The notes below the pieces were generated by a model, which made no database searches, was not told the origin of the DNA, and saw only the letters and a list, made by a program, of their open reading frames with translations. The position numbers and the translations under genes are program-made. This document shows positions 31,172 to 32,127 of a stretch of 63,224 nucleotides of DNA, in pieces; positions within the stretch are counted from its first letter, which is position 1, and every line of letters begins with the position of its first letter. Source of the stretch: an uncultured Pseudomonadales bacterium (GTDB taxonomy: Bacteria > Patescibacteriota > Microgenomatia > UBA1400 > PJMF01); contig CAZYBC010000006.1 of NCBI GenBank assembly GCA_964645645.1, positions 1-63,224 of the forward strand. The letters run 5' to 3'.

Positions 31172-31234
31172 GTTAAATATGCCTTAGATTGCTTCTTAAG
31201 CTTCGCTTAAAGATCAATCTAAGGCATATTTAAC
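31172..31234. repeat. Long hairpin element with GCGAAGC apex (family A)
   Basis: Perfect 20-bp arms 31172-31191 and 31215-31234; loop reads ATCTTTAA-GCGAAGC-TTAAGAAG on the minus strand. Confidence 0.9.
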
Positions 31235-31312
31235 TCGAGATTGAGAGAGATCAACAAACTAGACCTATAGATCACAGGGGGATTAAAAATTCCAAAATTC
31301 CACTAAAAAAAT

Positions 31313-31570
31313 TTAATAAACATCTTCGTGTTTACCAATATGATAAGCATAAACAATATTTTTTTTAAACAAAAGTAAAATTCTAATACTTTTATTAACT
31401 GAAACTGACCAGTATTCTTCACCAGAAAGTTTATGTAATCTTAATGATGGATAATCTGGATTTTTTATAAGGATATCTAATTGCTTTATAACTTTTTTTT
31501 TGAGTGCTACATTACCTTTAGTAATACTTGAAAATTCTCTTTCAAATGATTGGGTTAAGCGTAATTGCAT
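31313..31570 (-). CDS. RelE/ParE-superfamily toxin (YafQ/HigB-like)
   Basis: 85 aa; NPDYPSLRLHKLSG...WSVSVNKSIRIL...IGKHEDVY. Confidence 0.85.
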   Translation of the reverse strand: MQLRLTQSFEREFSSITKGNVALKKKVIKQLDILIKNPDYPSLRLHKLSGEEYWSVSVNKSIRILLLFKKNIVYAYHIGKHEDVY

Positions 31571-31576
31571 TAATCT

Positions 31577-31846
31577 TTATTTTTTTAATAAATGATCTTC
31601 TAATTCTTTGGATGAATTAATACTTACATATTTTTTAGCTTTAATCTCTTTTTTAGCTTGATTTAACAAAATTTTATCTTGAGAAATTGAATTAATTGAC
31701 TCTGTTTTAGCAAAATAAGTGGATAACAACATTCTGATGAAATCTTGAATTGATATCCCAATTCTATTAGCCTCAGATAAAATATTATCTTTTAAACCAA
31801 CAGATAGATTAATTTTAATAGTAGAAGAAGCAGTATTTAATGGCAT
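31577..31846 (-). CDS. Putative RHH-type antitoxin
   Basis: Directly upstream of the RelE gene; KINLSV...ANRIGISIQDFIRMLL; promoter TTTACA(31881-31876)-17-TATAAT(31858-31853) 6 nt before ATG 31846. Confidence 0.7.
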   Translation of the reverse strand: MPLNTASSTIKINLSVGLKDNILSEANRIGISIQDFIRMLLSTYFAKTESINSISQDKILLNQAKKEIKAKKYVSINSSKELEDHLLKK

Positions 31847-31873
31847 GGTCCCATTATAGACCACAATTGGTAC

Positions 31874-32127
31874 ATTGTAAATTATTTACAATGTCTTGTT
31901 ACAACGTCTGTAACGAATTAAAATGCTTATGAAGTTAATAATCCACAAACATCAACGTCTTTGCAAACATGGAAAGTTAATAGCCATAATTTACAACGTC
32001 TGTGCGCAGCAATTAAAAAAATAGAATGTATTAATCCGAAGTATCTTGGCAAATAGGTGAAGTTAATAGCCATAATTTACAACGTCTGTAACGAAGTAAA
32101 GCAGTTGTAAATTATGGTCTATTAACT
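31874..32127 (+). repeat. Array of partial and complete family-A units upstream of the TA promoter
   Basis: Exact 30-mer at 31974-32003 and 32060-32089; exact 19-mer at 31899-31917 and 32077-32095; degenerate copy 31932-31962; complete hairpin 32061-32127 with one bulged T. Confidence 0.85.

What the first reader, a model, noticed from the sequence alone, without database searches (positions are those of the whole stretch)
31172..32127. RelE TA module bracketed by hairpins, with a stuttered half-site array upstream
A complete family-A element lies on each side of the module. Upstream, left-arm-plus-loop-start units recur (cores near 31886, 31899, 31950, 31991 and 32077), separated by 11-56 nt of unique sequence, and diverge at or near the triloop. 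The palindrome ATTGTAAATTATTTACAAT (31874-31892) looks like a right-arm/left-arm junction and supplies the TA -35. Inference: footprints of repeated site-specific insertion or excision, or multiple antitoxin operators.
Basis: partly seen in the sequence, partly recalled or inferred. Interest (0 to 1): 0.65.

Follow-up and report, generated by a model that had tools for sequence, protein, structure and literature searches.

The report
Hairpin remnants upstream of toxin-antitoxin operon
An ordinary toxin-antitoxin gene pair in an ultra-small (Patescibacteria) bacterium lies beside a real pile of truncated copies of a long DNA hairpin, which look like scars of local duplication and recombination at that hairpin, not like cassette ends or extra antitoxin binding sites.

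Summary
Two strongly folding hairpins (31172-31234 and 32062-32126) bracket a RelE/YafQ-fold toxin and its antitoxin. Five same-orientation "arm plus loop-start" units sit upstream, and a 19-nt palindrome carries the -35.

- Eighteen modules of this toxin-antitoxin (TA) family share one portable leaderless promoter with GGTACC-like boxes around the -10. That is the likely operator. None of the other 17 has flanking hairpins or an array.
- A relative whose TA has decayed still keeps hairpins at both neighbouring gene ends, so the hairpins belong to the neighbours.
- The array looks like a decayed ~86-91-nt tandem duplication of hairpin pieces, interleaved with half of a second hairpin.
- A sister strain has that second hairpin intact. 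The two strains diverge exactly at its triloop, and the 1.25 kb on the TA side is near-identical against ~8% divergent flanks.
- No circles, integrase, or phage or plasmid match were found.

My best reading is replication slippage or template switching at very stable hairpins, which is inferred, not shown.

The hairpins belong to a lineage-enriched class with a conserved core capped by a GCGNAGC-type mini-hairpin and copy-specific arms. One such core is multi-copy. This class is the most interesting thread.

The parts
31172..31234 (.). Hairpin HA. It starts directly after the GH18 stop codon. It has a 20-bp perfect stem, an asymmetric internal loop and an apex TTAAGC-TTC-GCTTAA (GCGAAGC on the minus strand).
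   Evidence: z -10.6. The apex is conserved in L089 with two compensatory A.T to T.A swaps (z 8.5). HA is identical in sister strain L001.
31272..31300 (-). Conserved spacer landmark downstream of the toxin (GAATTTTGGAATTTTTAATCCCCCTGT). It marks the distal limit of the TA indel.
   Evidence: Aligned with L089 6957-6985.
31313..31570 (-). Toxin, 85 aa, with a RelE/YoeB/YafQ-type fold.
   Evidence: Weak Pfam and NCBIfam matches to ParE_like and YafQ, below the curated cut-offs. 145 homologues, mostly Patescibacteria. Model pLDDT 91; Foldseek TM about 0.8 to YafQ, YoeB, RelE and HigB. H46, R63, H81 and Y85 are invariant.
31577..31846 (-). Antitoxin, 89 aa counted from the ATG, probably ribbon-helix-helix. 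It ends 6 nt before the toxin start.
   Evidence: Weak CopG and BrnA matches. The same antitoxin family lies upstream of toxin homologues in 17 other loci. The structure model is poor (pLDDT 60), with two helices after an N-terminal TIKINL stretch.
31847..31881 (-). TA promoter and likely operator: -35 TTTACA (31881-31876), GTACC (31873-31869), GTGGTC (31864-31859), -10 TATAAT (31858-31853), GGGACC (31852-31847), then the ATG. The mRNA is predicted to be leaderless.
   Evidence: 11 of 12. The same architecture is seen across 18 modules.
31874..31892 (.). Perfect 9+1+9 palindrome ATTGTAAATTATTTACAAT. One half is the -35. Both halves resemble the inner ends of the H1 arms.
   Evidence: (I13, I14, I19, D2).
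31885..31922 (+). Units 1 and 2: TTTACAATGTCTTGT, then TTACAACGTCTGTAACGAATTAAA. Unit 2 is the arm end plus the 5' part of the H1 core, 23 of 24 identical to 32077-32100.
   Evidence: (D4).
31934..31962 (+). Unit 3: a diverged arm (GTTAATAATCCACAAACATCAAC) plus GTCTTT.
   Evidence: An arm of this type follows the H2-like hairpin in L089.
31976..32010 (+). Unit 4: a full arm identical to the H1 left arm, then GTCTGT and an intact mini-hairpin motif GCGCAGC. The partner arm is missing.
32015..32050 (+). One arm of a second hairpin (H2), ending at its apical stem CTTGGC. The loop and the other arm are absent here.
   Evidence: The complete H2 is present in L001 and in runs X4 and X7. The strains diverge after 32050.
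32062..32126 (.). Hairpin H1, 6 nt after the SIMPL stop codon, with a 22-bp stem and one bulge. Its centre GTCTGTAACGAAGTAAAGCA is an inverted relative of the HA core.
   Evidence: (z -9.3). It is absent from L001.
31913..32089 (-). Two diverged tandem blocks, A (32089-32004) and B (32003-31913). The first 30 nt are identical and the rest is weakly alike.
   Evidence: z 12.7. The second halves alone give p about 0.016. TRF finds nothing.
30800..32050 (.). Tract that is nearly identical between two strains (3 SNPs), while the flanks are about 8% diverged. Its right edge is the H2 apex.
8807..8878 (.). Another member of the hairpin class. Its 38-nt core (8824-8861) is multi-copy in the source metagenomes, with different self-complementary arms in each copy.
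61717..61907 (.). Two further members (61717-61789 and 61841-61907). They share one core in inverted orientation but have different arms.
   Evidence: In strain X4 one outer arm is replaced while the core is kept.

Best explanation
Three things are superimposed here.

(1) An ordinary, portable type II TA operon: an RHH-like antitoxin and a RelE/YoeB/YafQ-fold toxin. It is transcribed as a leaderless mRNA from its own sigma-70-type promoter. The GGTACC-like boxes around the -10 are the probable antitoxin operator.

(2) Two members of a lineage-enriched class of long palindromic hairpins. Each has a conserved core of about 25-38 nt capped by a C.G-closed GNA triloop (GCGNAGC, the hyperstable DNA mini-hairpin motif) and copy-specific, self-complementary arms. 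These hairpins cap the 3' ends of the neighbouring genes GH18 and SIMPL. They are not ends of the TA cassette.

(3) About 240 bp between the SIMPL hairpin and the TA -35 that form a scrapyard. It holds four to five same-orientation, differently truncated copies of one arm plus the first bases of the core, and one arm of a second hairpin. Together they are laid out as a decayed ~86-91-nt tandem duplication.

Proposed mechanism (inferred, not shown). Replication stalls at the very stable hairpin. The nascent strand then slips or switches template between arm copies, or arm copies undergo unequal crossing-over. Segments are therefore duplicated, deleted or replaced with junctions at or near the core and triloop. 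The gene-proximal half of the hairpin is what gets replaced, while the distal half is left behind. Strain-to-strain homologous exchange then spreads the TA-bearing segment. On this reading the array is a scar with at most incidental function.
For: Shown.
- The repeats and hairpins are real and local.
- All copies have one orientation, with a 30-nt identical stretch followed by weaker likeness over a period of 86-91 nt.
- Sister strain L001 has H2 intact directly after the SIMPL stop. The window keeps only the TA-side half up to the triloop, followed by H1.
- SIMPL in both strains is 77% identical to that of outgroup L089, and L089 also has an H2-like hairpin next to SIMPL. The window state is therefore the derived one.
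- The junction shows microhomology: TTTGCCAAGA against TTTGCAAAGA.
- The tract 30800-32050 is near-identical against ~8% diverged flanks.
- The L089 spacer is a decayed remnant of the TA promoter and the antitoxin 5' end (84% over 114 columns, z 6.2, 0 of 2000 shuffles). L089 still has both hairpins.
- The promoter and boxes are conserved in 18 modules, and the 17 other loci lack hairpins and arrays.
- The hairpin class is enriched here. There are 11 long hairpins in 63 kb, 5 with a central C-GNA-G. Other Patescibacteria loci have 37 in 904 kb, 2 with it (Fisher p 0.004, Poisson p 8e-5).
- GCGNAGC occurs 19 times against 9.9 expected.
- The 8807 core is multi-copy, with different self-complementary arms per copy.
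- Cores are conserved while arms differ: HA against L089, 61717 against 61841, and the X4 allele.

From established knowledge. GCGNAGC DNA mini-hairpins are extraordinarily stable (PMC13037366). Palindromes and quasi-palindromes provoke slippage and template-switch mutations.
Against: - The mechanism rests on anatomy only. No intermediate or minority junction was observed, and only assembled contigs could be examined.
- Only three related genomes exist, and the order of events cannot be reconstructed. H1 looks 'inside-out' relative to the L089 hairpin arms.
- Likeness of the second halves of the two tandem blocks is weak (p about 0.016), and TRF sees no array.
- Perfect identity of 22-30-nt arm copies could instead reflect selection or gene conversion.
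- The arms share TTGTAAAT with the -35 palindrome, so some antitoxin binding is not excluded.
- A multi-copy conserved core with copy-specific arms hints at an active process of an unknown kind that simple slippage does not explain.
Confidence: 0.5

Rival explanations
1. The arm units are extra or decoy binding sites for the antitoxin or the TA complex. On this reading the array tunes TA autoregulation.
For: Five TTGTAAAT half-sites cluster within 240 bp of the promoter, and one pair forms the palindrome over the -35. RHH antitoxins commonly bind repeated or palindromic sites (general knowledge).
Against: The elements conserved in 18 modules of this TA family are GGTACC-like boxes around the -10. 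The sequence upstream of the -35 is unrelated among them, and none of the others has an array. The arm motif is also present in the GH18 hairpin of L089, where the TA has decayed. The array differs between strains whose TA genes are identical. The likeness of the arms to the box2/-10 region is at chance level. The spacings (12, 51, 41 and 86 nt) show no helical regularity.
Confidence: 0.12
2. The units are footprints of a site-specific or hairpin-targeting mobile process. Candidates are integron-like attC recombination, an IS or MITE that targets hairpins, or a mobile core that seeds palindromes. Each event would split a hairpin at its apex.
For: The strains diverge exactly at a triloop. HA ends read GTTAAAT...ATTTAAC. 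The TA family sits in many different genomic contexts. One core is multi-copy with copy-specific arms. Cores are shared between hairpins that have different arms.
Against: No integrase or transposase domain was found in the scanned ORFs of the 63-kb window, though several ORFs had no match. The core-site order is the reverse of attC. There are no target-site duplications. The H1/HA arms and cores are not multi-copy. All units share one orientation. The TA indel limits (about 31853 and 31300) do not coincide with the hairpins. No circular or excised forms appear in contigs.
Confidence: 0.15
3. The hairpins and half-hairpins act at the RNA level. They would be 3'-end stabilisers, RNase III-type processing sites or insulators between SIMPL and the TA operon. 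Alternative pairing of one left arm with either of two identical right arms would act as a switch.
For: The hairpins abut stop codons by 0-6 nt. The ~20-24-bp stems with internal loops resemble processing sites. The 289-nt spacer RNA folds better than shuffles (z -5.1), with the left arm able to pair with the second right-arm copy.
Against: HA and H1 lack a U-tract, and the scan finds no terminator-like site. The triloop orientation relative to the transcript varies (UUC, GAA, UAC and GUA), which argues against selection on the RNA loop. No RNA data are available. This reading does not explain the truncated copies. It is not exclusive of the main explanation.
Confidence: 0.13
4. The array is an assembly artefact of a repetitive region.
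For: The arms repeat, and many source contigs are short.
Against: Contigs from three independent runs span 31772-32400 with no difference. A second form is reproducibly found in two other runs. The identical repeats are 30 nt or shorter.
Confidence: 0.02

Closest known systems
Type II toxin-antitoxin modules of the RelE superfamily (DinJ-YafQ, YefM-YoeB, RelBE)
   Same: The antitoxin comes first in a two-gene operon with a 6-nt gap. The toxin is 85 aa with a predicted fold matching YafQ, YoeB and RelE (TM about 0.8). The promoter is overlapped by short palindromic boxes.
   Different: Sequence matches to the curated families fall below their cut-offs. The antitoxin family is small and confined to Patescibacteria. 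The mRNA is predicted to be leaderless. Toxicity, neutralisation and operator binding are untested.
REP / BIME / REPIN elements (short intergenic palindromes mobilised by RAYT transposases)
   Same: They are intergenic, lie next to gene 3' ends, form hairpins, occur as full and partial copies, and can be recombination hot spots.
   Different: In REPs the whole unit is conserved among hundreds of dispersed copies and carries a GTAG head. Here only the central core is conserved, and only one subfamily is shown to be multi-copy. The arms are copy-specific, and no RAYT gene is seen in the window.
Palindrome and quasi-palindrome instability (slipped mispairing, template switching, hairpin cleavage and repair)
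   Same: Breakpoints lie at the hairpin centre, there is microhomology at the junction, partial copies share one orientation, and arms are kept perfectly complementary while differing between copies.
   Different: That mechanism is known from laboratory reporters. Here it is inferred from natural sequence only. No enzyme was examined and no intermediates were seen.
Integron attC sites and gene cassettes
   Same: Both are imperfect ~60-nt hairpins with a bulged base next to small ORFs, including TA genes. HA ends match GTTRRRY and RYYYAAC.
   Different: The order of the core sites is reversed (GTT outermost), there is no integrase or cassette array, and the hairpins persist where the TA has decayed.
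Mini-hairpin DNA d(GCGNAGC) (PMC13037366)
   Same: The exact heptamer sits at the centre of HA and of the hairpins at 8807, 61717 and 61841. It also sits in the orphan unit at 32004, in H2 of L001 and in the GH18 hairpin of L089.
   Different: The natural contexts described so far are priming or origin sites and a phage promoter on single-stranded DNA. A role as the apex of long chromosomal palindromes at gene ends has not been described, as far as the review I read goes.
Intrinsic (Rho-independent) terminators
   Same: They lie right after stop codons. H2 (in L001) and the hairpin at 8807 have an A-run before and a T-run after the stem.
   Different: HA and H1 have no T-run, their stems are AT-rich and far longer than usual, and the consensus scan finds none here.

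Membership tests
Type II TA, RelE/YafQ/YoeB superfamily | The toxin has the RelE-type microbial RNase fold | tested here: met
   AlphaFold model pLDDT 91. Foldseek top hits are YafQ, YoeB, RelE and HigB, with E down to 3e-6 and TM 0.75-0.83.
Type II TA, RelE/YafQ/YoeB superfamily | The sequence reaches the curated family threshold (Pfam or NCBIfam) | tested here: not met
   ParE_like 18.7 bits against a cut-off of 24.4. YafQ 18.2 against 30. TIGR00053 18.3 against 87. Some homologues do carry PF05016 or PF15738.
Type II TA, RelE/YafQ/YoeB superfamily | An adjacent small antitoxin gene with a DNA-binding domain, co-oriented and closely spaced | tested here: inconclusive
   The gene order and the 6-nt gap are met. 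CopG and BrnA matches are weak. The model has low confidence, though its helix-helix topology after an N-terminal strand-like segment fits RHH.
Type II TA, RelE/YafQ/YoeB superfamily | Toxicity, neutralisation by the antitoxin, and autoregulation at the operator | not testable with these tools
   Only the conserved promoter boxes argue for autoregulation.
Integron attC / cassette | R'' (RYYYAAC) at the 5' end and R' (GTTRRRY) at the 3' end of the hairpin | tested here: not met
   HA reads 5'-GTTAAAT...ATTTAAC-3', so the order is reversed. H1 ends GTTAATA/TATTAAC do not fit GTTRRRY.
Integron attC / cassette | An integron integrase or an array of cassettes nearby | tested here: not met
   No integrase domain in the scanned ORFs of the window. 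The neighbours are housekeeping genes.
REP / REPIN | Many dispersed, near-identical copies of the whole unit in the genome | tested here: not met
   There are no further H1 or HA arm copies in the window, L001, L089 or L090, and read depth is flat. One other core (8824-8861) is multi-copy, but with different arms. The full genome is not available.
REP / REPIN | An associated RAYT (TnpA-REP) gene and a conserved GTAG head | tested here: inconclusive
   No transposase-like Pfam hit in the window, but only 63 kb was seen. GTAG occurs only inside the GCGTAGC variants.
MITE / IS remnant | Conserved terminal inverted repeats, target-site duplication and multiple copies | tested here: not met
   The ends differ between hairpins, and no duplication flanks them. 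The apparent direct repeat around the TA (TGTGGTCTATAAT / TGTGATCTATAGG) is at chance level.
Intrinsic terminator | A GC-rich stem followed by a T-run | tested here: not met
   No terminator-like site in 31000-32300. Only H2 of L001 carries a T7 run.
Antitoxin operator array | The repeats are shared by homologous TA modules and co-vary with the antitoxin | tested here: not met
   Across the 18 modules the GGTACC-like boxes are conserved. The arm motif and the array are found only here.
Tandem repeat | Head-to-tail copies detectable over the full unit | tested here: inconclusive
   Blocks A and B align over their full length (z 12.7), but the signal lies mostly in the first 30-46 nt. The second halves give p about 0.016, and TRF is negative.
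Mini-hairpin DNA GCGNAGC | The heptamer sits at the hairpin centre | tested here: met
   HA, 8807, 61717 and 61841 carry it at the centre, and 32004 carries it in an orphan unit. H1 has the weaker ACGAAGT. Actual folding in vivo is not testable.

The most novel reading that the evidence does not exclude
This Patescibacteria lineage carries a previously undescribed kind of DNA element. It is a short conserved core capped by the hyperstable GCGNAGC mini-hairpin. The core spreads or is copied between sites and then grows copy-specific perfect palindromic arms by template switching that copies one flank onto the other. The resulting long palindromes at gene ends act as recombination hot spots. Hairpin halves and adjacent DNA, including the TA-bearing segment, are exchanged there, with junctions at the triloop.
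Probability: 0.15. Interest if true: 0.75.

Novelty: new variant of a known kind. Interest (0 to 1): 0.45.

Why it matters
First, it is a caution. Hairpins on both sides of a TA module look like cassette boundaries, but here comparison with relatives shows they belong to the neighbouring genes. The repeats upstream are probably scars, not operators.

Second, it gives a testable operator for a Patescibacteria-wide TA family: a leaderless promoter with three GGTACC-like boxes.

Third, and most interesting, it exposes a lineage-enriched class of long palindromes in a very small genome. Their centre is the hyperstable DNA mini-hairpin motif and their arms differ from copy to copy. Strain differences begin exactly at the triloop. 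If this holds up, it is a natural system for studying how palindromes are born, extended, halved and replaced, and how selfish gene pairs ride on such recombination tracts.

Tried and rejected
- Rfam at gathering thresholds over the whole window found only two tRNAs.
- TRF on the array found nothing.
- Phage and plasmid blastn of 31172-32135 gave no match.
- No RNA-seq runs hold the locus.
- A metagenome scan with the HA apex pattern gave two GC-rich chance hits.
- Genome and viral scans with the 8807 core found nothing.
- 'Arms are copies of the box2/-10 region' and 'a direct repeat flanks the TA as a target duplication' were rejected. A match with 3 mismatches to TGTGGTCTATAAT is at chance frequency (26 hits against 22 expected).
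- 'L089 is a naive empty site' was rejected. Its spacer aligns with the TA promoter and the antitoxin 5' end, so it is a loss site.
- L022 and L090 lack a TA but are too distant to define boundaries.
- The attC reading was rejected because of the core-site order.
- The dispersed-repeat reading for the H1 and HA arms was rejected by nhmmer and by flat read depth.
- A third HA allele from X5, X6 and X9 showed three right-arm changes without visible compensation. This was too fragmentary for a covariation test.
- The antitoxin structure model was too weak to search with.
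Full report
**Setting.** The window is an AT-rich chromosome piece of a Patescibacteria (Microgenomates/Pacebacteria-like) bacterium. The closest GH18 orthologues among species-representative genomes are only about 50% identical. Near-identical DNA occurs only in wastewater metagenomes. On the minus strand the order is SIMPL (32133-32987), a 286-nt spacer, the antitoxin (31577-31846) and the toxin (31313-31570). GH18 (29930-31171, plus strand) converges on them.

**Checking the observation.**
- Both bracketing hairpins are real. 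HA (31172-31234) begins right after the GH18 stop codon. H1 (32062-32126) begins 6 nt after the SIMPL stop codon. As single strands both fold far better than shuffles, z -10.6 and -9.3.
- The stuttered units are real and all lie on one strand. TTACAACGTCTGT occurs three times in 63 kb, all here.
- Four of the five AACGTCTKT hits and five of the sixteen TTGTAAAT hits fall within about 240 bp. The clustering p is about 1e-9.
- The 19-nt palindrome is exact. One half is the -35 of the only strong promoter in the region: TTTACA-17-TATAAT, 11 of 12.
- Two corrections apply. Part of the "unique" spacer is one arm of another hairpin, H2. A 46-nt stretch is repeated at 89%.
- Independent contigs from three runs reproduce the sequence exactly, so it is not an artefact.

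**The TA module.**
- The toxin has 145 homologues, mostly in Patescibacteria.
- Its model (pLDDT 91) matches YafQ, YoeB, RelE and HigB at TM about 0.8. Sequence matches to the curated families are below threshold.
- The antitoxin is probably ribbon-helix-helix, but the evidence is weak.
- I compared 17 homologous modules from other genomes, all in different contexts. They share one architecture: TTGACA, 1-3 nt, GGTACC, 4 nt, GGTAC, TATAAT, GGTACC, ATG. The -10 ends 6-9 nt before the start codon in 17 of the 18 modules, which predicts a leaderless mRNA.
- The window reads TTTACA-AT-GTACC-AATT-GTGGTC-TATAAT-GGGACC-ATG.
- The promoter and these boxes therefore travel with the module and are the likely operator. 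Sequence upstream of the -35 is unrelated among modules. None of the other loci has flanking long hairpins or an array.

**Relatives of this locus.**
- Sister strain L001 is 100% identical through the TA genes, HA and most of the array. Directly after the SIMPL stop it has a different, complete hairpin, H2: AAAAAATAGAATGTTATTAATCC...TTGGC-TTC-GCCAA...GGATTAATACATTCTATTTTTT.
- The window keeps only the TA-side half of H2 (32015-32050). It diverges exactly at the loop and then carries 11 nt and H1. Run X7 shows the L001 form too.
- Between the two strains, 30800-32050 has 3 SNPs while both flanks differ by about 8%. The TA-bearing segment has thus been exchanged recently, and its right edge is the H2 apex.
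- L089 (SIMPL 77% identical to both strains) has no TA genes. Its spacer nevertheless aligns with the TA promoter, the first part of the antitoxin gene and the landmark downstream of the toxin: 84% identity, z 6.2, 0 of 2000 shuffles. It is a TA-loss site.
- L089 still has an H2-like hairpin after SIMPL and a long hairpin over the GH18 stop.
- The hairpins therefore belong to the flanking genes. The state with H2 next to SIMPL is ancestral, and the window's H1 state is derived.

**HA and H1 are one family.**
- The GH18 hairpin of L089 has the core of HA: GATCTTTwwGCGAAGCwwAAGAAGCA, z 8.5, with two compensatory A.T to T.A swaps. Its outer arms resemble those of H1 (z 5.3).
- The H1 centre is a weaker relative of the HA core, in inverted orientation (z 4.0, p about 0.002; the reverse-complement control shows nothing). 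The arms align at z 2.9.
- The arms have no other copies in the window or in related loci.

**Anatomy of the array.** Read on the minus strand, it contains two blocks:
- Block A, 32089-32004: ACAGAC-GTTGTAAATTATGGCTATTAAC-TT, a linker, and the H2 half.
- Block B, 32003-31913: the same 30 nt, a similar linker, and a diverged arm.

A truncated third start then runs into the palindrome and promoter.
- The blocks align over their full length (z 12.7). Outside the first 30-46 nt the likeness is weak (p about 0.016), and TRF reports nothing.
- Each unit is truncated differently. 31976-32010 keeps the arm, GTCTGT and an intact GCGCAGC mini-hairpin motif but has lost its partner arm. 31899-31922 keeps only the arm end and the core 5' part, 23 of 24 identical to H1.
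- The H2/H1 junction shows microhomology: TTTGCCAAGA against TTTGCAAAGA.

**The wider hairpin class.**
- Long hairpins are about four times denser here than in 904 kb of other Patescibacteria loci. Five of 11 have a central C-GNA-G, against 2 of 37 elsewhere: Fisher p 0.004, Poisson p 8e-5.
- GCGNAGC is over-represented, 19 hits against 9.9 expected. It is the motif described as extraordinarily stable mini-hairpin DNA (PMC13037366).
- The cores at 8807, 61717 and 61841 are one sequence family. The last two share a core in inverted orientation but have different arms.
- The 38-nt core at 8824-8861 is multi-copy in the source metagenomes. At least 4-5 contigs with different flanks carry it, and a collapsed 38-nt unitig has about 3-4 times the genome depth. 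The flanks of individual copies are self-complementary but differ between copies.
- In strain X4 one outer arm of the 61841 hairpin is replaced while the core is kept.
- The GNA triloop lies on either strand relative to transcription. This fits a DNA-level or orientation-independent property better than a selected RNA loop.

**How it most likely works.**
- Shown: truncated same-orientation hairpin halves; a strain polymorphism that starts at a triloop; a recently exchanged TA-bearing tract; hairpins that persist without the TA; and a portable TA promoter with its own boxes.
- Inferred: very stable hairpins stall replication. The nascent strand slips or switches template among arm copies, or arm copies recombine unequally. 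This duplicates, deletes or replaces the gene-proximal half and leaves distal halves behind. Template switching would also keep arms perfectly complementary while letting them differ between copies.
- I give this reading about 0.5.
- Rivals are auxiliary operators (0.12), an unknown hairpin-targeting mobile or site-specific process (0.15) and RNA-level roles (0.13, not exclusive).
- No recombinase domain was found in the scanned ORFs. No excised forms were seen in contigs. No phage or plasmid likeness was found.

**Verdict.** Recombination at hairpins is supported. Cassette ends, repeated insertion of the TA and an operator array are not. The TA is a new member of a known kind. The array is an unusual but explicable scar. 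The core-conserved, arm-variable hairpin class with a GCGNAGC apex is the part worth following up.

Noticed in passing
window 8807-8878 (core 8824-8861): Long hairpin between two minus-strand genes. Its 38-nt core TTTATAAACGCAATCGCTTCGCTCAAATGGTTTATAAA occurs in at least 4-5 differently flanked contigs per run. Each copy has its own self-complementary arms. One 151-nt record holds two cores 126 nt apart.
   Followed up: partly
window 61717-61789 and 61841-61907: Two hairpins downstream of lepA share the core AACCATTCAAGCGTAGCTTGTTGYGTT in inverted orientation but have unrelated arms. In strain X4 the right outer arm of the second one (61892-61911) is replaced.
   Followed up: partly
window 30800-32050 against L001: A 1.25-kb tract covering the GH18 3' end, the TA and most of the array is near-identical between two strains that differ by about 8% on both sides. 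This is the signature of recent homologous exchange of the TA-bearing segment.
   Followed up: yes
L089 6867-6985: The spacer of a related genome is a decayed remnant of the TA promoter and the antitoxin 5' end, joined near a GAATT(T)TGG microhomology to the landmark after the toxin. This records TA loss by deletion.
   Followed up: yes
L001 1256-1330 against L089 6797-6866: The interior of the H2 hairpin (asymmetric internal loop plus triloop) is inverted between the two genomes while the outer stems keep their place. This is a flip such as recombination between the arms would give.
   Followed up: partly
L095, L097-L110, L114, L136 (upstream of the antitoxin ATG): A TA family spread across Patescibacteria shares a leaderless promoter with three GGTACC/GGTGCC-like boxes at fixed positions. 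This is a ready-made operator hypothesis.
   Followed up: yes
window 31140-31260, runs X5, X6 and X9: Further variants exist. One allele has three uncompensated right-arm changes in HA and diverges after 31256. A soil-metagenome contig joins the right half of an HA-like hairpin to sequence resembling the antitoxin 3' end.
   Followed up: partly
window 302-1205: A second TA-like pair, an AbiEii nucleotidyltransferase toxin with a DUF6922 partner. It lies next to two tRNA-Met genes (1212-1281 and 1524-1598) and two long hairpins (1349-1423 and 1444-1515).
   Followed up: no
window 34237-54093: A single 6618-aa ORF on the minus strand, a giant protein typical of some ultra-small bacteria. It was not analysed.
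   Followed up: no
window 31272-31300: A 27-nt intergenic stretch (GAATTTTGGAATTTTTAATCCCCCTGT) is conserved with L089 although the surrounding spacer has decayed. Its function is unknown.
   Followed up: no
window 31939-31947: TAATCCACA inside the diverged arm unit is one mismatch from the DnaA-box consensus. It is probably chance.
   Followed up: no
L022 7171-7317: The GH18-SIMPL spacer of a distant relative has no TA. It holds three direct repeats of CYAAGGCAAGNC with CTCAATATTCC between them.
   Followed up: no
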